Positions 46,796 to 52,768 of a stretch of DNA of 52,768 bases are shown here, piece after piece. The first letter of the stretch is position 1. Each line of letters opens with the position of its first letter. The stretch comes from a virus (taxonomy: Duplodnaviria; Caudoviricetes). The stretch is from IMG/VR virus record IMGVR_UViG_3300030104_004723, positions 1 through 52,768 of that record; one strand, 5' to 3'. The translations under genes were made by a program, and so were the position numbers. The notes beneath the pieces were generated by a model, which was not told the origin of the DNA, made no database searches, and saw only the letters and a program-made list of their open reading frames with translations.

Positions 46796-47304
46796 TACTT
46801 ACCTCCTAACAAAGGAACATTAGTACCCTTAAAGATTTTATTAAGAGCTTGAACAAGAGGTTCAGTTTCAGTCATACCCATAACAGTATCGATTGCAGCT
46901 GTTCTTTTATCTTCTAGCTGCTTTAATCTTTTACCTTTAGGTGTATTAATGAAATTATCTCTTGCTAGTGAATTACATATCTCTCTTAAAAACTTTTCAA
47001 CACCTTTACTATCATATGGTGGGCTCCAATAATTATTCTTACCTGGATATTCAGTCTTTTCATGTAATGCTTTACATATATTCTGCATTCTATCTCTTAC
47101 TTTATTCCATTTCTCTTCTGCAGATTCATAATCTTTGAATATTTTACCTAAGCCAGTCTCTTTTAAATAAGACTTGTATTGCTTGTTAGCTACTGTTTCT
47201 ATACCAGCAGCATGTACTTGTTCTAATATTGCAATTTCTTTATTGATTTCACCTTTAATCCTATCAATAAAATAATCACGTTGTTGTTTTGATAATGATT
47301 TCAT
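46795..47304 (-). CDS. Hypothetical helical protein
   Basis: SD AAGGAG; TAATG coupling. Confidence 0.6.
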   Translation of the reverse strand: MKSLSKQQRDYFIDRIKGEINKEIAILEQVHAAGIETVANKQYKSYLKETGLGKIFKDYESAEEKWNKVRDRMQNICKALHEKTEYPGKNNYWSPPYDSKGVEKFLREICNSLARDNFINTPKGKRLKQLEDKRTAAIDTVMGMTETEPLVQALNKIFKGTNVPLLGGK

Positions 47305-47606
47305 TATTCTGTCTCCTTAACTTTAGTTAACAATGATGGGCTACATCTCCATTTTACCCATGGTCTTCCTTCTTCTTTTACTCCTACGCTTTTACGATTA
47401 ACTTTTTCAATAATACCTGTGTAAGTTTCTTTACTTAAACCTACACCTTTAACCCAAGATACTTTTTCTCCTATTCTAAAGCCTTCTAAATCTTTAGCTT
47501 GCAAGTAATTTCTTCTATCTTGTATTGCATGTACTAATTCAGTTAATTGTTCTTGACTCATTCCTTTTACATCTTCTAATAAATCTAGAAAGTTATCTAC
47601 TCCCAT
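47304..47606 (-). CDS. Hypothetical protein with SH3-like C-terminal barrel
   Basis: FRIGEKVSW...GIIEKVNRKSVGV...WRCSPSLL; likely start 47606 after GGAGG. Confidence 0.6.
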   Translation of the reverse strand: MGVDNFLDLLEDVKGMSQEQLTELVHAIQDRRNYLQAKDLEGFRIGEKVSWVKGVGLSKETYTGIIEKVNRKSVGVKEEGRPWVKWRCSPSLLTKVKETE

Positions 47607-47760
47607 ACTTATCCTCCAATTCATCGTAGTCTTTTATTATTTTAATAAATTTATCTTTACTTAAACCTGTTGCTGCTCTTGCTCTAGGGTCAAACATGTT
47701 AAAAGCTCCTGATGTTTGAATAGTTACAAAAGCATTAAAGTCTTCTTTACTTATTTCCAT
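47593..47760 (-). CDS. Small protein (DUF5049-like SGAFNMFD motif)
   Basis: IQTSGAFNMFD; likely start 47760 after GGAGG. Confidence 0.55.
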   Translation of the reverse strand: MEISKEDFNAFVTIQTSGAFNMFDPRARAATGLSKDKFIKIIKDYDELEDKYGSR

Positions 47761-47924
47761 TATTCTTCCTCCCACATTAAGTTTACGTTATAAATTTCAG
47801 CTACTTTTTTTAATAATATAGTTGTATAATGTTTTTTATCTGAAGTCATTTCATCTACAAATCCATTTACAAATAAATAATCAATAGCCTCCATACAGTC
47901 TGATTTAGTTACTTTATTGTTCAT
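47760..47924 (-). CDS. Hypothetical protein (54 aa, not in the ORF track)
   Basis: MNNKVTKSDCMEAIDYLF...; SD AGGAG; TAATG coupling. Confidence 0.55.
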   Translation of the reverse strand: MNNKVTKSDCMEAIDYLFVNGFVDEMTSDKKHYTTILLKKVAEIYNVNLMWEEE

Positions 47925-48060
47925 CTTTTCTCCTGATTAATTTCCATTTACCTAATCTACATACGTTTGAATACATTTTAAAGATTACTGCTTGAGTGTC
48001 TAATTCGCCATCTTCCCACAAATCTTCTTCTGGTATTTCTTCCCAATTTTTAAGATTCAT
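47914..48060 (-). CDS. Hypothetical protein (48 aa, not in the ORF track)
   Basis: MNLKNWEEIPEEDLWEDGELD...; SD AAGGAG. Confidence 0.5.
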   Translation of the reverse strand: MNLKNWEEIPEEDLWEDGELDTQAVIFKMYSNVCRLGKWKLIRRKDEQ

Positions 48061-48083
48061 TTAATCTCCTTAATTAAAATTTA

Positions 48084-49101
48084 TGGGAGTGTCAATAGTG
48101 ATGCTAAACAAAGGGCGAAAGGAGACAGACCATGAAAGTCCATCAAAAACCCATAATACACCACGTCTGACCTCACGGTATCAGCTCTCCACTCCCAATT
48201 ATATACAAGCTTTTTTTTCGTTTAATAGTAGTGCCTCAAGGCTTTATCACTCCTAACAACGATTTAACGTTGCGGACTCGCTTTCGCTTCTTTTAGAGGT
48301 TCCTGGAATAAACTTAGTGTAACTTCTCAGGACTGCTACTAAACTAGTTACATACTTGTAATTATTATGAGAGAGACCACGCTTGAGGGTGATTAATCAG
48401 ATTACTGTAATTAACCTCTTAACGAATGGTGGTTTTTGCCGTAACTCTCTCAATTTTATATAAACCTACACTTTTTCCTCGATAGCTTCTGCTTACGGCG
48501 TAAACCGCCTATATCCACTATCTCCCTCCATCTCCTCGGTTTATATCTCATCCGACAAGTTATCACAGACTTATTTGTTTGCTTACCTTGTTTTATTACA
48601 GGGTCCATGGTTCATTACGGCAACAACCTGTAAATTTATGAGAGCCTCACATATTCCTTTGCCTTAGGAGGGCCTCTTAGCTATTTCCTAAGGACTTACA
48701 GGACCAGTTATTGGCTCTCAATTGTTTGCCTAACATCTGTGGACCTTGGTTAGGCGTTTTATAAATTAGCTACTATGTAGCATTGCATGTCCACCTGCTT
48801 TTATAATTATTCTAAATCTAAGGGACAGAACACTTATATGATGTCGAGTGTTATGTAGAAAGTAGGTGAGTAATCCTGTCCCTTTAAGTATATAATCATG
48901 TTCACAGCCAGTCTAGAAGGAATCAACTGTGAAGTTTGCCGTAATTAACGACATTAAAGACTGCTTAATAAGTACCGCCTTAATTGGCTAGTTTTATTAA
49001 GTTCTTCCTGTTTATAGTGTTGTGGCAGTTACTGAGAGGCATCCCTTGTATCCTAGGAGTACAATTCGTTCGCATCGCGGGTGCTTTGTCCAACTATAAA
49101 C
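48084..49101 (-). ncRNA. Tandem array of about 11 stem-closed structured RNA modules
   Basis: No ORF of 60 aa or more; consecutive 6-9 bp closing inverted repeats separated by AT-rich linkers; strand inferred from flanking genes. Confidence 0.6.
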
Positions 49102-49119
49102 TATTTTATGTGACGCTAA

Positions 49120-49263
49120 TCACACCGAATCTTGTTTTCTTTTTTCAGTAAAAGCAAGAATTATACTAGCAACGAGATGTCTTTCTTCCATAGTTAAAAA
49201 CCTATTATTAGTTTTCATTATATCAAAGAACTCCTTCTCGCCCATTATATCTGTGTCTACCAT
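49120..49263 (-). CDS. Hypothetical protein (47 aa, not in the ORF track)
   Basis: MVDTDIMGEKEFFDIMK...; SD GGAGG; overlaps the upstream stop. Confidence 0.45.
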   Translation of the reverse strand: MVDTDIMGEKEFFDIMKTNNRFLTMEERHLVASIILAFTEKRKQDSV

Positions 49264-49745
49264 ATTTCAAATCCTCCACTTTGTATACAGAAATCAGCGA
49301 AAGCTTTTACATTCTCTACATCAAATGGATATTTGTATTCTTTATCTTCTTGGTCTAACTCTACTTCTTTCTGATGTGCTGCAACTGTGCCATCTTCTAT
49401 TAATGATAAAAGTTGAACACCTAGTTTAGCTGCACTATCTGCATTTAATCCTTTACCATCATTATAATGACCTCCATTATGAATATCATCACTTATTAAA
49501 TCAGGACAATGGTAAGCACAGAAATCCCATAAGGGTCTCCACCACCAACAATTATTACGAAAGTATATACCTGGATTAGCTTTATTCCATTCATTATCTT
49601 CTTTCCAGTATTGTTCTTTCTCTTTATCCCAATTCTTGTCCTCTTCTCTTTCAGGCCAAGTCTTATCTTCCCATTTAGTTAGCATTGGAAAATCTTTCCT
49701 TGATTTATTTATTGTAGGGTCTAAACCCGATACATCCATTCCCAT
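49257..49745 (-). CDS. Hypothetical phage protein
   Basis: YFRNNCWWWRPLW and SGGFEIW motifs; SD AGGAG. Confidence 0.7.
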   Translation of the reverse strand: MGMDVSGLDPTINKSRKDFPMLTKWEDKTWPEREEDKNWDKEKEQYWKEDNEWNKANPGIYFRNNCWWWRPLWDFCAYHCPDLISDDIHNGGHYNDGKGLNADSAAKLGVQLLSLIEDGTVAAHQKEVELDQEDKEYKYPFDVENVKAFADFCIQSGGFEIW

Positions 49746-49747
49746 AA

Positions 49748-49993
49748 TTACTCTCCTATGTTATTTATCTTTAAGAAATCCATATGTTCAAAGCCTTTTT
49801 CATCTTTAAACCATACTACATCAAAATCTTTACCTTCTTCAGCTATGCCCATACCATCACATATATGACATAATTGAAAATGTACATTACCACCTCTTGC
49901 ATTAGTAAAATCAACAAAGTCAACACCTTCTCCATCACAAGCTGGGCATTTATCTCCTGTTATATTGCCATGTTTGTCTATTTTTGTATACAT
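49748..49993 (-). CDS. DnaJ-type zinc-finger protein
   Basis: CPACDGEG and CHICDGMG (two CxxCxGxG repeats). Confidence 0.7.
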   Translation of the reverse strand: MYTKIDKHGNITGDKCPACDGEGVDFVDFTNARGGNVHFQLCHICDGMGIAEEGKDFDVVWFKDEKGFEHMDFLKINNIGE

Positions 49994-50195
49994 TATTCTC
50001 CTTTTAATGTTTAATTATAGAAGTGAGCTCTACAAACATATCTCTCTTTAATTTATAGAGCCACTCCGCCTCGAGCCATTCCACTTACAAGCGAAGCAAG
50101 AATGGTATGAGAGACACAATATATCATCATCCCTTTTTTCACTTTCGGCGACTATTATATCCTATTGCTAAATATAATAACGGCTTCGCTTATTG

Positions 50196-50271
50196 TTGCG
50201 GAGGTTGGAATCGAACCGACAATAACTCCTAATATATAAATTAGGTTAGCCTACCAAGGCTTGTCTCCGCA
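50196..50271 (-). tRNA. Degenerate tRNA/tRNA-like RNA (8-nt anticodon loop UUUAUAUA; identity undetermined)
   Basis: TGCGGAG/CTCCGCA acceptor stem, AGCC-TTGGTA-GGCT D arm, CCTAA/TTAGG anticodon stem, GTCGG-TTCGATT-CCAAC T arm; no encoded CCA. Confidence 0.7.
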
Positions 50272-50279
50272 CAGATTAG

Positions 50280-50756
50280 TTAAAAGTTACCATCAGCAAC
50301 TTGGAAACATGTGAGTCCTAATCCATTACGCCACATATCTACGACTTGATTCCTATCGTCAAAGACACAAAGGACATTATACCTTTCCATTATCTCTTTG
50401 CCTATTTCAAACTTGACAAAAGCATCTTTACGGTAATCACCTTCATTACGAAAGACAAATTGGTTAAATTCAGATTCACCTACATACTGATTAACCCAAG
50501 CTTTAGTTAGTTCTGCAACATTTTTAAACTGATGCTCTTCAAATGTTACATTCTCTCTAGCTGATGTAAACACTACATAAATAGGTTCATCATGTATTTT
50601 AGCATAATATCTAACAGTAGCTAATAATACATCTATTACAGGAACATTTGGTTCATCATTGTAAGCTTTATGATACTCGAAAGGTGTTCTTTTACCCTTC
50701 ATTAGTGCGACAGTACCATCAATATCGCATATTATACATTTACTCTTCATCATCAC
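50280..50756 (-). CDS. HAD-family phosphatase related to the 3'-phosphatase domain of T4 polynucleotide kinase
   Basis: CDIDGTVA, FTSAR, RKDAFVK and FDDRNQVVDMWR motifs; no kinase domain. Confidence 0.88.
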   Translation of the reverse strand: MMMKSKCIICDIDGTVALMKGKRTPFEYHKAYNDEPNVPVIDVLLATVRYYAKIHDEPIYVVFTSARENVTFEEHQFKNVAELTKAWVNQYVGESEFNQFVFRNEGDYRKDAFVKFEIGKEIMERYNVLCVFDDRNQVVDMWRNGLGLTCFQVADGNF

Positions 50757-50815
50757 CTCTTTTTAAATTAAACTTTTGTCCCAACCTTAATTATACTAGC
50801 TGGGACATATTATAT

Positions 50816-50998
50816 TTAGCAACTTATGTACTGTAACCACTTAATTACGTACCATATAAACCATATCATACATATATTTATTAGTATGGCTATGTAATAT
50901 GTCATCATTTCAAGTGGGTCTGTTTTGATAATAGATATAATACCTTTTATTAATTTATCTATTCTTAATGTTGCTATTATGGCTCTCAAATAAGACAT
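50816..50998 (-). CDS. Small membrane protein
   Basis: One hydrophobic helix YYIAILINICMIWFIWYVI; SD AAGGAG. Confidence 0.55.
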   Translation of the reverse strand: MSYLRAIIATLRIDKLIKGIISIIKTDPLEMMTYYIAILINICMIWFIWYVIKWLQYISC

Positions 50999-51019
50999 TA
51001 TAGTCTCCTTTTATAAATA

Positions 51020-51789
51020 AATTCTAATAAAGAGTTGAGATTATACTCTTTACGCTAGCTCTTTTGGACTACATTCCATGTTCGCAGGTTTTGTCCGTAT
51101 CCACTTAGTTTGCACTAAGTACACTAGCAGGCTCAGTAGTTATAGACTACCACTCTTAACGATTAAGTTATCTCAGCAACTACTTACATCTAGATAAACG
51201 TGCCCGCCTACCTAGTGCTTTCATTACAAAACATAATATGCCTTGTGAGCATAAAATGCACCTCATTCAGGTTCACTGTGAGGTATTAGAGCCCTTTGCT
51301 CTTAATCGCTGTAGCTGTTTTACATTATGTTATCATTATGTTTAGTTTGACAACGGCATTTATATTGAGTCGCTTACAGAGAAGCTTGCTACCCTATTAA
51401 GGTAGTAAATACTTCGCTCAATACTTCAATAGACACCTGGTGAGTGAATATTAACATGTTTCTGGTGTCGCCCTTTATCACTAAAGGATTAACCATAACA
51501 TTGGAGTACAGCCTTACTACCACAGCTTAGCTTATTACTCCTACGCCTTATCTTATTGTATGTTACCATACTCAACACCATTACCATTTGGTGTATAGCT
51601 CTTCTGTTGCACACAGAGTTACTACATAGACGCTTGTATCTTTGGGCTCAATGAGTGCAATAACATTGTCTTGTTATCACTTTGGGCATATTAACTATGC
51701 TTATCCTAACGACATGATACTGCCGTTTCTTACGAAATCTTTGCATACTTGGGTAACAAGGAGTATGCAATCCCCGTGGCTATAACCTG
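51020..51789 (-). ncRNA. Large (~770 nt) structured non-coding RNA, GOLLD/ROOL-like candidate
   Basis: No ORF of 60 aa or more; about 20 hairpins, long-range helices, GNRA loops on the - strand, 3' terminal pseudoknot. Confidence 0.6.
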
Positions 51790-51939
51790 TTAAAGATTAT
51801 ATTTATGACCATTATCACATGTCCATATGCCATTAACTAATTTCAAGTGTTTAGTCTTATTGTTGACTATTACTTGAACAGTAGTGTTATTACTACCATA
51901 GCTAATGATTTTATGAACATTGAATGTTTTCTTGCTCAT
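51790..51939 (-). CDS. Hypothetical protein (49 aa, not in the ORF track)
   Basis: MSKKTFNVHKIISYGSNN...; AAAGGA upstream. Confidence 0.5.
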   Translation of the reverse strand: MSKKTFNVHKIISYGSNNTTVQVIVNNKTKHLKLVNGIWTCDNGHKYNL

Positions 51940-52007
51940 ATCAATCCTTTTGTTAGTTTTATTTGATTGATTATAGCCTATTAATATATAAATTTTATGT
52001 TTTTAAA

Positions 52008-52036
52008 TAAAGATAAGGGGGAACTATTGTCCCCCC
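52008..52036 (-). terminator. Intrinsic terminator
   Basis: Minus strand GGGGGGA-caatagt-TCCCCCT followed by TATCTTT, just after ORF 52049-52429. Confidence 0.65.
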
Positions 52037-52048
52037 AATCAGTTGTTT

Positions 52049-52429
52049 CTAGAATCCTGCACTTTGAACTGATGCTGATTCTTGCTTGCTTTTAGTTGGA
52101 AACAATTCAACGTAGTGAGCATTGGTAACAATGTCATTCGTTGGTTCATGTGCCCAAGCAACGTTGCCGTGCTCTTCAATGAAAGCCTCTGCCATTTCAT
52201 CAGTCATCTTGTCGAACCAAGCAAAGATTGCAGGGTCGTTAGATGCTTGTGACTTGTCGGCATTGTTGTTGCGAAGAAATGAGATACTATAAGAGTGACC
52301 ACCAATGTTACCATTTGACCTTGGTATCCTGTTGGTAAAGCACCAATCTTCGCCTTTCGTGCCGTCTTTCTTTTGCCAAGTCTTCTTGACTAGTTCTACT
52401 CTGTAATAATCTGTTATAAGTTGTGACAT
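52049..52429 (-). CDS. Hypothetical protein, first gene of the - arm in this window
   Basis: 126-aa ORF with its own terminator; more GC-rich than the bulk of the genome. Confidence 0.65.
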   Translation of the reverse strand: MSQLITDYYRVELVKKTWQKKDGTKGEDWCFTNRIPRSNGNIGGHSYSISFLRNNNADKSQASNDPAIFAWFDKMTDEMAEAFIEEHGNVAWAHEPTNDIVTNAHYVELFPTKSKQESASVQSAGF

Positions 52430-52768
52430 GTCGTGTCCCTTTCTATGTTAAGAGTGTAGGTGCTGTTTATTTATAACAACACGCACACTTGTATGAATAA
52501 AGCTGTGGCTCTGCTATGCTATCGCTGTTTGGATGTAACCGTATTTATATCTGTAACCAAGCATAAGCAAAGCCTATTAAATGTTATTAGATGGTAGTCT
52601 CAACGAGCAAACCAAGCGTCTTTGCACCTATGCTCTATTACAGAGGAACGGCTCTAACATCTAATTGAATTGAATTATAACTAAAACGCATATAAGAAAA
52701 ATGTTTTTAGGGTGGCGTATAAGGATAAATAAGACCTCCACTAAAATCCCCCAATTTTTGAAACCTTT

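What the first reader, a model, noticed from the sequence alone, without database searches (positions are those of the whole stretch)
48061..52048. Candidate system: RNA-dominated early region (giant RNA, 3'-phosphatase, tRNA mimic, sRNA array) served by an injected RNA polymerase
Seen: in transcription order, large structured RNA, small membrane protein, stand-alone PNK-type phosphatase, tRNA-like RNA 8 nt downstream of it, three small ORFs, then the module array; about half of this 4 kb is structured non-coding sequence in an otherwise tightly packed genome. Established: the T4 Pnk phosphatase heals 2',3'-cyclic and 3'-phosphate RNA ends. Inference: the phage deploys functional RNAs immediately after entry, with the phosphatase maturing or repairing their ends, as an RNA-based takeover or anti-defence programme. 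The functional linkage is hypothetical.
Basis: inference. Interest (0 to 1): 0.8.

Follow-up and report, generated by a model that had tools for sequence, protein, structure and literature searches.

The report
Phage GOLLD cassette and RNA array
The start of one operon of an uncultured marine phage holds a known giant cage-forming RNA (GOLLD) that travels with an RNA-end phosphatase gene and a tRNA gene, followed by several small folded RNAs of no described family; the pairing offers one lineage-specific lead to what GOLLD does.

Summary
The described layout is real. All five ORF-free gaps of 150 nt or more in the 52.8-kb record lie in 48061-52768.

**What the parts are**
- The "giant RNA" is a GOLLD RNA (Rfam RF02032, 171 bits, cut-off 150).
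- The phosphatase is a stand-alone T4-Pnk-type HAD domain.
- The "tRNA mimic" is a diverged CAU-type tRNA with a rebuilt anticodon arm.
- The "array" holds at least three conserved structured RNAs (M1, M2, M5) with covariation and no Rfam match.

**Linkage splits the proposed system in two**
- GOLLD, phosphatase and tRNA travel together. All 13 closest phosphatase relatives have GOLLD 23-570 nt upstream.
- Among 50 related records, only one has GOLLD, and it is the only one with the phosphatase.
- The RNA array and the small ORFs also occur in relatives without the cassette.
- Outside this clade the link fails: 0 of 49 confirmed GOLLD records have the phosphatase over the cut-off.

**Expression and limits**
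- Marine metatranscriptome contigs identical to the window cover GOLLD, M1, M2/M3 and the stretch after the tRNA.
- Early timing, use of a virion RNA polymerase, and phosphatase action on these RNAs are untested.
- A first-stage note of this scan (e1-6278974) described the same kind of operon on other DNA.

The parts
52017..52036 (-). Terminator-like hairpin (8 pairs, 6 G-C, T-run) just after the 126-aa ORF. It separates that ORF from the unit that holds GOLLD.
   Evidence: sequence
51790..51939 (-). 49-aa ORF upstream of GOLLD. It has a 65%-identical homologue in L005.
51028..51789 (-). GOLLD RNA. The conserved 3' domain is 51423-51032. The 5' domain runs up to about 51742-51789. The best -10/-35-like site of the region (11 of 12) ends at 51796.
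   Evidence: RNA contigs 51275-51734
50816..50998 (-). 60-aa ORF with a hydrophobic C-terminal half and no family match. A similar ORF persists in L082, which lacks both GOLLD and the phosphatase.
50280..50756 (-). Stand-alone T4-Pnk-type HAD 3'-phosphatase domain (158 aa) with the DIDGT motif.
50195..50271 (-). Diverged tRNA. The acceptor and D arms are near-identical to a CAU-anticodon tRNA in L026. The anticodon stem is fully re-paired (CCTAA/TTAGG) and the loop is 8 nt, all A/U, containing TAT. The T stem has one C-A mismatch.
49994..50194 (-). Structured 201-nt stretch between the tRNA and the next ORF (z -3.27). It is not conserved in relatives and is present in an RNA contig.
49748..49993 (-). 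81-aa CxxC zinc-finger-like ORF
49257..49745 (-). 162-aa Trp-rich ORF of a clade-wide family with no Pfam or PHROG match (67 loci)
49120..49263 (-). 47-aa ORF
48885..49119 (-). Module M1, a structured RNA of about 235 nt. 13 of 21 predicted pairs show compensatory changes in 18 sequences.
   Evidence: RNA contig 48897-49045
48593..48727 (-). Modules M2 and M3. M2 is an RNA of about 100 nt. It has a closing stem GAGAGCC/GGCTCTC, an invariant core and a variable apical hairpin.
   Evidence: RNA contigs 48528-48705
48453..48545 (-). Module M4, conserved in 6 loci; structure not analysed
48295..48375 (-). Module M5, a motif of about 60 nt. Helix P1 (TGTAAC/GTTACA) is proven by covariation. A proposed crossing helix (CCTG...CAGG) never varies. 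A -10-like box lies about 7 nt upstream.
48061..48240 (-). Modules M6-M8 and the leader of the next ORF. M6 always follows M5 in relatives. The fold is not distinguishable from shuffles (z -1.08).

Best explanation
The 4 kb is the promoter-proximal part of the leftward operon of a marine crAss-type phage. It is a composite of two independent things.

**(1) A portable three-part cassette**
- Parts: a GOLLD RNA, a stand-alone T4-Pnk-type 3'-phosphatase and a CAU-type tRNA. In this record the tRNA's anticodon arm has been rebuilt.
- Shown: the three are always found together in this phage group. They are gained or lost as a unit, and GOLLD is present in RNA libraries.
- Inferred mechanism: GOLLD and the tRNA are made from one transcript and released by tRNA-end processing. 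The tRNA supplies decoding capacity, probably for AUA. ATA makes up 461 of 789 Ile codons in the long plus-strand ORFs. The phosphatase strips 3'-phosphate or 2',3'-cyclic-phosphate ends from cut tRNA or tRNA-like ends, so that host enzymes can restore them. Candidates are the CCA-adding enzyme or a host ligase. The cassette would then be a tRNA-centred translation-support or anti-tRNase module.

**(2) An array of independent small structured RNAs**
- M1, M2 and M5, with M5 followed by M6, are common to the whole phage group whether or not the cassette is present.
- Their jobs are unknown.
- M5 sits just behind a -10-like box, so it may begin its own transcript.

The confidence of 0.55 is for the whole statement. 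The composition and linkage alone I would put near 0.9, and the inferred mechanism near 0.3.
For: **Identity of the parts**
- GOLLD: 171 bits against a cut-off of 150.
- Phosphatase: PF25109, E 8.6e-40. It matches solved Pnkp1 (4xrp) and the T4 Pnk phosphatase domain (5uj0, 1ltq) at E about 3e-18. D11, D13, G14, T15, R23, R67, D133 and D134 are invariant in 16 sequences.

**Linkage of the cassette**
- Of the 50 phosphatase-bearing records searched, out of the 80 kept, 13 have GOLLD. Those 13 are exactly the 13 best phosphatase matches (47-68% identity). The other 37 have none.
- GOLLD lies on the same strand, 23-570 nt upstream of the phosphatase.
- Of 50 records holding the 162-aa ORF family, 1 has GOLLD and 1 has the phosphatase. 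It is the same record, G095.
- All 14 GOLLD-bearing relatives have a tRNA. The ten that ARAGORN calls all have a CAT anticodon; Rfam alone found those in L010 and L014.

**Patchy distribution**
- By Sak4 identity the nearest relative (95%) lacks the cassette and the next (89%) has it.
- Relatives at 83-89% lack it, one at 85% has it, and relatives at 44-45% have it.
- L082 keeps the membrane ORF but lacks both GOLLD upstream and the phosphatase downstream.
- In L009 the phosphatase type and the GOLLD type are re-assorted, yet the two stay together.

**tRNA**
- L026 has the same acceptor and D arms with a normal CTCATAA loop.

**Expression**
- Contigs with no differences from the window, in RNA libraries X8, X10 and X13 (at most two samples, one study), cover 51275-51734 at depth 16-45. 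Contigs also cover 48528-48705, 48897-49045 and 50044-50193. Only two ORF contigs were laid, of about 160 nt each.
- The RNA contig 50044-50193 begins 2 nt after the tRNA's last base.

**Array**
- The modules occur in near-complete records without GOLLD: G055, G070, G090 and G094.
- Covariation is shown. G-U intermediates are valid only on the minus strand.
Against: **The link is not general**
- 0 of 49 confirmed GOLLD records from other phages have PF25109 over the cut-off.
- In 30 more pattern-matched records 1 has it, 41 kb away.
- One clade-type phosphatase (L022, 49% identity) has neither GOLLD nor a tRNA in its 22-kb contig.
- An AI note of this scan (e1-5770267, untested) reports another GOLLD-phosphatase pair in a large freshwater phage, so my sample may miss cases.

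**Tight linkage alone could explain co-inheritance**
- The parts lie within about 0.6 kb of each other.
- Pairwise identities of phosphatase and GOLLD are uncorrelated overall (Spearman 0.08, p 0.53). That can be read either way.

**No repair partners**
- No kinase (PF13671), Rnl2-type ligase (PF09414) or RtcB (PF01139) is in the record, which is 94% complete.
- The PF09511 search is uninformative because its control rang nowhere.

**Weak points in the tRNA and RNA evidence**
- The tRNA here fails Rfam's tRNA threshold. Its best clan hit is 25.9 bits to tRNA-Sec. With an 8-nt loop it may not decode at all.
- Whether the CAU tRNAs are Met or Ile2 could not be decided.
- RNA evidence comes from assembled contigs. 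These show neither strand, ends nor level, and DNA carry-over cannot be excluded.
- T4-Pnk-type phosphatases also act on DNA 3' ends and 3'-nucleotides (recalled), so an RNA substrate is not shown.
Confidence: 0.55

Rival explanations
1. Hitch-hiking. The phosphatase is an unrelated accessory gene, for example for DNA 3'-end or nucleotide metabolism. It once landed between GOLLD and its neighbouring tRNA in one phage lineage. It is co-inherited and co-transferred only because the three lie within about 1 kb.
For: - GOLLD elsewhere lacks it: 0 of 49 and 1 of 30, at 41 kb.
- In many other phages a tRNA sits 12-22 nt after GOLLD. The arrangement here looks like that layout with an ORF inserted.
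- L022 carries the phosphatase without GOLLD.
- No kinase or ligase partner is encoded.
Against: - Co-occurrence is perfect across 50 related records and in the 13 closest homologues. This holds despite a patchy distribution relative to core genes.
- L082 lost or lacks both flanks while keeping the ORF between them.
- L009 combines a phosphatase of one type with a GOLLD of another.
- In L026 and L042/L043 more distant phosphatases again follow a CAU tRNA plus an ORF-free stretch of 0.8-0.9 kb with no GOLLD match. The L026 stretch folds with z -4.64.
- 19 of 67 more distant phosphatase loci have a tRNA within the 6-kb flanks.
Confidence: 0.3
2. All elements form one RNA-based early take-over or anti-defence programme: GOLLD, membrane protein, phosphatase, tRNA mimic, small ORFs and array. 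It is transcribed by the injected polymerase, and the phosphatase matures or repairs all the RNAs.
For: - All parts lie in one same-strand block at the start of the operon.
- In the cultured crAss-like phage phi14:2, two long intergenic regions are transcribed from the earliest time point, abundantly and stably, with unknown function. Its early genes are transcribed by the virion polymerase (passages read).
- The RNAs here are present in RNA libraries.
Against: - The array and the small ORFs occur without GOLLD and the phosphatase in near-complete relatives.
- Module order is permuted between relatives.
- The membrane ORF has no tblastn match in the 15 cassette-bearing or closest loci compared. 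Only L082, which lacks the cassette, keeps a similar ORF.
- -10-like boxes precede GOLLD and M5, whereas phi14:2 early transcripts showed no common upstream motif.
- The polymerase assignment rests on one motif.
Confidence: 0.1
3. The array modules are cis-acting leader elements rather than free small RNAs. They could be promoter-proximal RNA structures that modify the polymerase, in the manner of antitermination signals, or that control the downstream genes.
For: - M5 starts about 7 nt after a -10-like box in the distinct copies listed.
- It is always followed by M6.
- In the window it leads into the next ORF block through a long leader.
- The modules keep one orientation relative to the genes in all hits.
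- No terminator-like site closes M1 or M5.
Against: - Modules change order and neighbours between relatives, and L123 has two M2 copies. That fits independent genes better.
- RNA contigs cover M1 and M2/M3 as separate short pieces, though contigs cannot show ends.
Confidence: 0.3
4. The ORF-free stretches are DNA-level signals, such as a replication origin, packaging site or recombination hot spot, and not RNA genes.
For: - They lie beside the replication module and near the end of the record.
- Module shuffling suggests frequent recombination.
Against: - Compensatory changes keep helices in M1, M2 and M5.
- Intermediate G-U pairs are valid on one strand only.
- GOLLD is a curated RNA family.
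- Identical contigs occur in RNA libraries.
Confidence: 0.04

Closest known systems
GOLLD RNA (Rfam RF02032), including the marine env-38 GOLLD whose 14-mer cage was solved (Kretsch et al. 2025, PMC12286853; passages read)
   Same: - It scores over the family cut-off.
- It has a conserved 3' domain and a variable 5' domain, about 710-760 nt in all.
- It is phage-borne and beside a CAU tRNA. The paper says env-38 lies downstream of a Met-tRNA, and 8 cassette relatives have that order.
- Its function is unknown.
   Different: - In this clade it is always followed by a Pnk-type phosphatase gene. The word phosphatase does not occur in that paper. None was found with the other GOLLDs I sampled.
- Cage formation was not tested here.
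Phosphatase domain of T4 polynucleotide kinase/phosphatase and of bacterial Pnkp1 (PDB 5uj0, 1ltq, 4xrp)
   Same: - HAD fold family PF25109, with the DxDGT motif and the other invariant acidic and basic residues.
- It is phage-encoded and lies near a tRNA.
   Different: - It stands alone, with no kinase domain.
- No RNA ligase is found in the record.
- The classical heal-and-seal pathway against anticodon nucleases (recalled; cited in PMC10264068) therefore cannot be completed by phage genes alone.
Early long non-coding RNAs of the crAss-like Cellulophaga phage phi14:2 (Drobysheva et al., bioRxiv 10.1101/2020.03.07.982082; passages read)
   Same: - A marine crAss-type phage.
- Long ORF-free regions near the start of an operon.
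- Abundant RNA of unknown function.
   Different: - There is no sequence similarity to the window's RNAs.
- The phi14:2 region gives only a near-threshold tmRNA-like match: 46 bits against a cut-off of 47, at L417 4031-4502. It has no GOLLD.
- Timing is known for phi14:2 and unknown here.
Phage tRNA genes proposed to replace or evade host tRNAs cut by defence nucleases (van den Berg et al. 2023, PMC10264068, passages read; Azam et al. 2024, PMC11555353, search listing only)
   Same: A phage-borne tRNA with an altered anticodon loop next to an RNA-end repair enzyme.
   Different: - Here there is a single tRNA.
- Its loop has 8 nt rather than point changes.
- It fails the Rfam tRNA threshold.
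- No host nuclease is known.

Membership tests
GOLLD RNA (RF02032) | Score at or above the curated covariance-model cut-off (150 bits) over the full 416-position model | tested here: met
   171 bits, model positions 1-416, E 2.3e-46
GOLLD RNA (RF02032) | Large size, with a conserved 3' domain and a less conserved 5' domain | tested here: met
   The 3' domain is 51423-51032. The 5' part aligns to relatives up to 51742 and folds with z -3.2. The domain description comes from PMC12286853.
GOLLD RNA (RF02032) | Phage context, next to tRNA genes | tested here: met
   Virus record. tRNA-like gene about 750 nt downstream. tRNAs flank GOLLD in relatives and in other phages.
GOLLD RNA (RF02032) | Assembly into a closed homo-oligomeric cage | not testable with these tools
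   Needs cryo-EM or native gels
T4 Pnk-type HAD polynucleotide 3'-phosphatase (PF25109) | Pfam model over its cut-off (27.6 bits) | tested here: met
   136.6 bits, E 8.6e-40; phrog_505 at 2.2e-38
T4 Pnk-type HAD polynucleotide 3'-phosphatase (PF25109) | DxDxT nucleophile motif and the other conserved catalytic residues | tested here: met
   D11, D13, G14, T15, R23, R67, D133 and D134 are invariant in 16 aligned sequences. The roles of these residues are recalled, not tested.
Bifunctional polynucleotide kinase/phosphatase (T4 Pnk) | N-terminal P-loop 5'-kinase domain fused to the phosphatase | tested here: not met
   The protein has 158 aa and aligns only to the phosphatase half of 1ltq and 4xrp. 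No AAA_33 match anywhere in the record.
T4-type tRNA heal-and-seal repair pathway | A phage RNA ligase alongside the end-healing enzyme | tested here: not met
   No PF09414 or PF01139 match in the 94%-complete record. PF09511 is uninformative because its control was silent.
Canonical tRNA (RF00005) | Score over the Rfam cut-off (29 bits) | tested here: not met
   The best clan hit is 25.9 bits to tRNA-Sec (cut-off 47). There is no RF00005 row at gathering level.
Canonical tRNA (RF00005) | Cloverleaf with a 7-bp acceptor stem, T loop and 7-nt anticodon loop | tested here: inconclusive
   ARAGORN draws a cloverleaf with a perfect acceptor stem and a TTCGATT T loop. The anticodon loop has 8 nt and the T stem has one mismatch. 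Its L026 orthologue has a 7-nt CTCATAA loop.
crAss-type virion RNA polymerase (phi14:2 gp66-like) | DxDxD catalytic motif in a giant virion protein | tested here: inconclusive
   DYDGD at residue 3101 of the 3585-aa ORF. No PHROG match and no solved-chain match at E 0.01 or better. Virion packaging is not testable.

The most novel reading that the evidence does not exclude
In this phage group a giant RNA, a CAU tRNA and a 3'-phosphatase form one working unit. The giant RNA is usually GOLLD. In L026 and L042/L043 it may be an unrelated 0.8-0.9-kb RNA in the same slot. The cage-forming RNA would hold or present tRNA-like ends, and the phosphatase would clear their 3'-phosphate or cyclic-phosphate ends. 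This would give the phage a protected, self-repairing tRNA supply against host tRNA-cutting defences. If so, it would be the first protein partner and the first biochemical activity tied to GOLLD.
Probability: 0.12. Interest if true: 0.85.

Novelty: new variant of a known kind. Interest (0 to 1): 0.6.

Why it matters
GOLLD has had no known function since its description (2009, recalled), and its cage structures solved in 2025 sharpened the question. A gene that co-occurs with GOLLD without exception across a diverse phage clade, and that has a defined chemistry (removal of 3'-phosphates from nucleic-acid ends), gives a concrete experiment. The test is whether the enzyme acts on GOLLD, on its linked tRNA, or on cut host tRNAs. 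The lead is lineage-specific, so it may reveal one use of GOLLD rather than its general role.

Separately, the region yields at least three structured RNA families (M1, M2, M5) that match no Rfam family. They have covariation support, and M1 and M2/M3 also occur in marine RNA libraries. They extend to a second marine crAss-type lineage the unexplained observation that phi14:2 makes abundant non-coding RNAs from its early region.

Tried and rejected
- **Alternative genetic codes for the 1-kb ORF-free stretch.** No convincing frame appeared, so protein coding was rejected.
- **Rfam at permissive thresholds on the region.** Nothing beyond GOLLD and chance-level hits. ROOL, tmRNA, known ribozymes and riboswitches gave no hit at E 5 or better for the modules.
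- **DNA search of cultured phages.** Only a 106-nt match to a Pnk gene, so there are no cultured close relatives.
- **Protein search of cultured phages.** Best hits are 43% identical or less, in Streptomyces and T4-like phages. I did not examine their surroundings.
- **Scan of bacterial genomes with the phosphatase alignment.** Only chromosomal homologues at 40-47% identity, in Actinoplanes, Streptomyces, Spirosoma and similar. This did not help with GOLLD and was not followed.
- **A general GOLLD link to RNA repair.** RNA ligase PF09414 is over its cut-off in 3 of 50 GOLLD records, none near GOLLD. Rejected.
- **Cas12a3 tRNA-tail cleavage (PMC12851939, passages read).** Considered as a source of ends needing a phosphatase. 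The paper mentions neither cyclic phosphate nor phosphatase, so I dropped it.
- **Upstream-gap census of all phosphatase loci.** Too noisy, because spurious ORFs inside RNAs break the gaps. Not used.
- **M1 pattern scan of viral contigs.** Only 11 contigs, mostly already held. I widened the set with an HMM over held loci instead.
- **M6-M8 fold.** Not distinguishable from shuffles.
- **Met or Ile2 identity of the CAU tRNAs.** No tool on hand could decide this.
- **ArfA-like peptide lead (scan note e1-5987605).** The small ORFs here gave no such Pfam match. I did not test relatives.
- **Parts without RNA-contig cover.** No laid contig covers the phosphatase gene or most other ORFs. This proves nothing.
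- **Papers.** Supplements were not opened. The supplementary tables of the phi14:2 and GOLLD structure papers may list neighbours or coordinates that bear on novelty. The original GOLLD paper (Weinberg 2009) and Morgado 2020 were not held, so I cannot exclude that they mention a phosphatase. My searches for one were made, plus the in-paper searches.

Full report
**What the window is.** It is a whole IMG/VR virus record of 52,768 bases, estimated 94% complete. Genes run rightward to about 40.6 kb and leftward from the right end. A 3585-aa ORF carries a DYDGD motif at residue 3101 and an HEFAH motif at residue 1267. It matches no PHROG family and no solved chain at E 0.01 or better. "Virion RNA polymerase" is therefore a plausible label by size and motif, and is not verified. 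The DNA occurs in runs labelled as marine metagenomes.

**Checking the observation.** On the minus strand the order is:
- a 126-aa ORF (52429-52049);
- a strong terminator-like hairpin (52036-52017);
- a 49-aa ORF;
- a long ORF-free stretch (51789-50999);
- a 60-aa ORF with a hydrophobic tail;
- a 158-aa ORF;
- a tRNA-like gene 8 nt after its stop;
- 201 ORF-free bases;
- ORFs of 81, 162 and 47 aa;
- 1059 ORF-free bases (49119-48061).

Using a permissive ORF measure (45 aa or more on the coding strand), 46% of 48061-52048 is covered against 98% of the rest of the record. All five uncovered gaps of 150 nt or more in the whole record lie in 48061-52768. No alternative code opens a credible frame in the 1-kb stretch.

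**The giant RNA is GOLLD.** Rfam's GOLLD model matches 51423-51032 end to end at 171 bits (cut-off 150). The model covers only the conserved 3' domain. The upstream 5' part is conserved in relatives up to 51742 and folds better than all 100 shuffles (z -3.2). The best promoter-like site of the region (11 of 12 positions) ends at 51796, which would place the start near 51789. Such sites are no more frequent here than in shuffled sequence, 18 found against 21 expected. GOLLD is a known family of phage and prophage RNAs, often beside tRNAs, of unknown function. It assembles into 12- to 14-mer cages. The marine env-38 member was found downstream of a Met-tRNA (PMC12286853, passages; PMC12990946, passages; PMC5737381, passages).

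**The phosphatase.** The 158-aa protein matches Pfam HAD_PNKP at E 8.6e-40 and PHROG 505, "polynucleotide kinase", over the phosphatase half only. It also matches the solved phosphatase domains of Pnkp1 and T4 Pnk at E about 3e-18. The DxDGT motif and other conserved acidic and basic residues are invariant in an alignment of 16 relatives. It has no kinase domain. The record has no AAA_33 kinase, no Rnl2-type ligase and no RtcB. The Rnl1 search is uninformative because its control was silent.

**The tRNA-like gene.**
- ARAGORN draws a cloverleaf with a perfect 7-bp acceptor stem, a D loop with GG and a TTCGATT T loop. The anticodon loop is 8 nt, all A/U, and the T stem has one mismatch.
- It falls below Rfam's tRNA thresholds.
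- Every GOLLD-bearing relative has a tRNA gene. The ten that ARAGORN calls all have a CAT anticodon; Rfam alone found those in L010 and L014.
- L026 holds an orthologue with the same acceptor and D arms and a normal CTCATAA loop.
- The window's copy is therefore a CAU-type tRNA whose anticodon arm was rebuilt. Every stem position changed and all five pairs were kept, which argues for continued selection on the fold.
- The new loop contains TAT. ATA makes up 461 of 789 Ile codons in the long plus-strand ORFs.
- The CAU tRNAs could be AUA decoders (Ile2 type) and this copy a UAU variant. That is inference. I could not tell Met from Ile2, and an 8-nt loop may not decode.

The phosphatase has 118 relatives in viral contigs, of which the best 80 were kept. 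I searched the whole records of the first 50 for GOLLD.
- 13 have it: 7 over the cut-off and 6 at 119-148 bits with E 1e-34 or better. These are exactly the 13 best phosphatase matches (47-68% identity). None of the other 37 has it.
- In all 13, and in G095, GOLLD lies on the same strand 23-570 nt upstream of the phosphatase.
- The 162-aa ORF marks the wider phage group (67 loci). Of 50 such records, 1 has GOLLD and 1 has the phosphatase, and it is the same record, G095. Among the 12 that are at least 90% complete, the count is 1 of 12 for each.
- The tRNA sits just after the phosphatase (L002-L005 and the window), just before GOLLD (L006-L010, L012-L014), or after the 162-aa ORF (L126).

One exception exists. 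L022 has a 49%-identical phosphatase with neither GOLLD nor a tRNA in its 22-kb contig.

**Is this only shared descent?**
- Ranking loci by Sak4 identity to the window gives a patchy picture. L082 (95%) lacks the cassette and L002 (89%) has it. L125, L127, L124, L086, L092 and L101 (83-89%) lack it. L126 (85%) has it with a phosphatase only 41-46% identical. L009, L012 and L014 (44-45%) have it. The cassette has therefore been gained or lost several times as a unit.
- L082 keeps an ORF like the window's membrane ORF but lacks GOLLD on one side and the phosphatase and tRNA on the other.
- L009 pairs a phosphatase closest to the L006 group (66-70%) with a GOLLD closest to the window group (73-75%, against 51-55% to the L006 group).
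- Over all pairs the two identities are uncorrelated (Spearman 0.08, p 0.53).

These points favour selection for keeping the parts together, but they do not prove it.

- Of the first 50 records, 49 have GOLLD over the cut-off. None of the 50 has PF25109 over its cut-off. One 22-bit hit lies 50 kb away from the GOLLD.
- Of the next 30, which I did not confirm with the model, one has a stand-alone phosphatase. It lies 41 kb from the GOLLD pattern. Another has an 18-bit fragment 14 kb away.
- RNA ligase is over its cut-off in 3 of the 50 records, never near GOLLD.
- tRNAs are common next to these GOLLDs. They occur 12-22 nt after the 3' end, embedded about 395 nt before it, and as a CAT tRNA just before the 5' end. 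The GOLLD-tRNA link is general and known.
- The phosphatase link is specific to this clade within my sample. A note from this scan (e1-5770267) reports another GOLLD-phosphatase neighbourhood in a large freshwater phage. I did not test it.

**The array.** The 1059-nt stretch is a mosaic of modules conserved in relatives, always in the gene orientation and in varying order.
- M1 (49119-48885, about 235 nt) has 19 distinct full-length or near-full-length homologues among the held loci, plus partial ones. In 18 aligned sequences, 13 of 21 predicted pairs show compensatory changes. In the first 11 sequences the count was 26 of 46.
- M2 (48727-48630) has a closing stem, two invariant internal segments and a variable apical hairpin. 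10 of 20 pairs show compensatory changes in 17 sequences.
- The M5 core occurs in 46 viral contigs, as 42 distinct versions. Over 28 distinct aligned sequences, helix P1 is paired in every sequence, and 3 of its 6 pairs changed on both sides. No shuffle or slid control matched this. Intermediates with G-U pairs are valid only on the minus strand. The crossing helix that would make a pseudoknot never varies. Part of that is because my search pattern fixed it, so the pseudoknot remains a proposal.
- None of the modules matches an Rfam family.
- The modules occur in near-complete records without GOLLD or the phosphatase: G055, G070, G090 and G094. They are therefore independent of the cassette.

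**Expression.** Four marine metatranscriptome runs, from at most three samples and two studies, were laid on 47000-52768.
- Contigs with no differences from the window cover GOLLD (51275-51734, depth 16-45 in three runs).
- Others cover M2/M3 (48528-48705, depth 4-11; two runs of one sample), M1 (48897-49045) and the stretch right after the tRNA (50044-50193).
- Only two ORF contigs were laid, of about 160 nt each.
- A fourth run holds a related GOLLD with 22 differences and a replaced 151-nt segment.
- Contigs cannot show strand, ends or levels, and DNA carry-over is possible. This counts as presence in RNA libraries, not as measured expression.

**Early timing and the injected polymerase.** Neither can be tested here. 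The block is the first part of the leftward operon. In L082 the divergent genes begin just upstream of the homologous block. In phi14:2, two long intergenic regions are transcribed from the earliest time point, abundantly and stably, with unknown function. Its early genes are made by the virion polymerase and share no upstream motif, while its middle promoters look like host -35/-10 promoters. Here -10-like boxes precede GOLLD and M5. This fits a host polymerase at least as well. The phi14:2 region shares no sequence with this one and gives only a near-threshold tmRNA-like hit.

**Verdict.** The single-system reading is only partly supported, because the block holds two independent things. The first is a GOLLD/phosphatase/tRNA cassette that is new as a combination but confined to one phage clade. 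The second is an array of at least three undescribed structured RNA families. The mechanism I favour for the cassette is tRNA supply plus 3'-end healing, with GOLLD in an unknown supporting role. This is inference from the known chemistry of the enzyme family and from the linkage. The main rival is simple hitch-hiking of an unrelated accessory gene.

Noticed in passing
L026:4867-6555; L042:5144-6531 (L043 is 99% identical in the gap): Two GOLLD-negative arrangements repeat the order CAU tRNA, then an ORF-free stretch of 0.8-0.9 kb, then a Pnk-type phosphatase (37% identity). The L026 stretch folds with z -4.64 (20 shuffles). No GOLLD or other Rfam hit at E 1 or better, and no homologue among the held loci. 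This may be another giant RNA in the same slot.
   Followed up: partly
L006:5651-5726; L010 about 5845 onward; L012 about 5430 onward; L417 (phi14:2):4031-4502: tmRNA-like elements sit next to these RNAs. L006 has a 76-nt tRNA-like-domain hit (55.7 bits) between GOLLD and the phosphatase. In L010 and L012, tmRNA-style 5' ends appear just after GOLLD. The abundant early non-coding region of phi14:2 gives a 46-bit tmRNA hit (cut-off 47).
   Followed up: partly
window 48885-49119, 48630-48727, 48295-48375 (minus strand): M1, M2 and M5 each look like an undescribed structured RNA family restricted to this marine phage group. M1 contains an invariant palindrome TCCTAGGA. L123 carries two M2 copies.
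   Followed up: partly
window 49257-49745 (minus strand): The 162-aa Trp-rich ORF (FRNNCWWWRPLWDFC motif) belongs to a family found in 67 viral loci, with no Pfam or PHROG match.
   Followed up: no
L243-L322: Around other phages' GOLLDs, tRNAs take three recurrent positions. These are 12-22 nt after the 3' end, embedded about 395 nt before it, and a CAT tRNA about 0.9-1.25 kb before it, which is at the 5' end. Some of these tRNAs have odd anticodons (4-base, TTA, CTA).
   Followed up: no
window 1-40600 (plus-strand ORFs over 600 nt): ATA is the main Ile codon (461 of 789) and is more frequent than ATG (310).
   Followed up: no
L015-L081: More distant stand-alone Pnk-type phosphatases in larger phages often sit within 6 kb of tRNA arrays (19 of 67 loci). 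In L027 and L028 a tmRNA gene lies upstream.
   Followed up: no
window 52430-52768: The 339 nt upstream of the 126-aa ORF are also ORF-free. Short segments are conserved in relatives (L003-L005, L010, L082, L086, L125). This is probably the divergent promoter region at the operon start.
   Followed up: no
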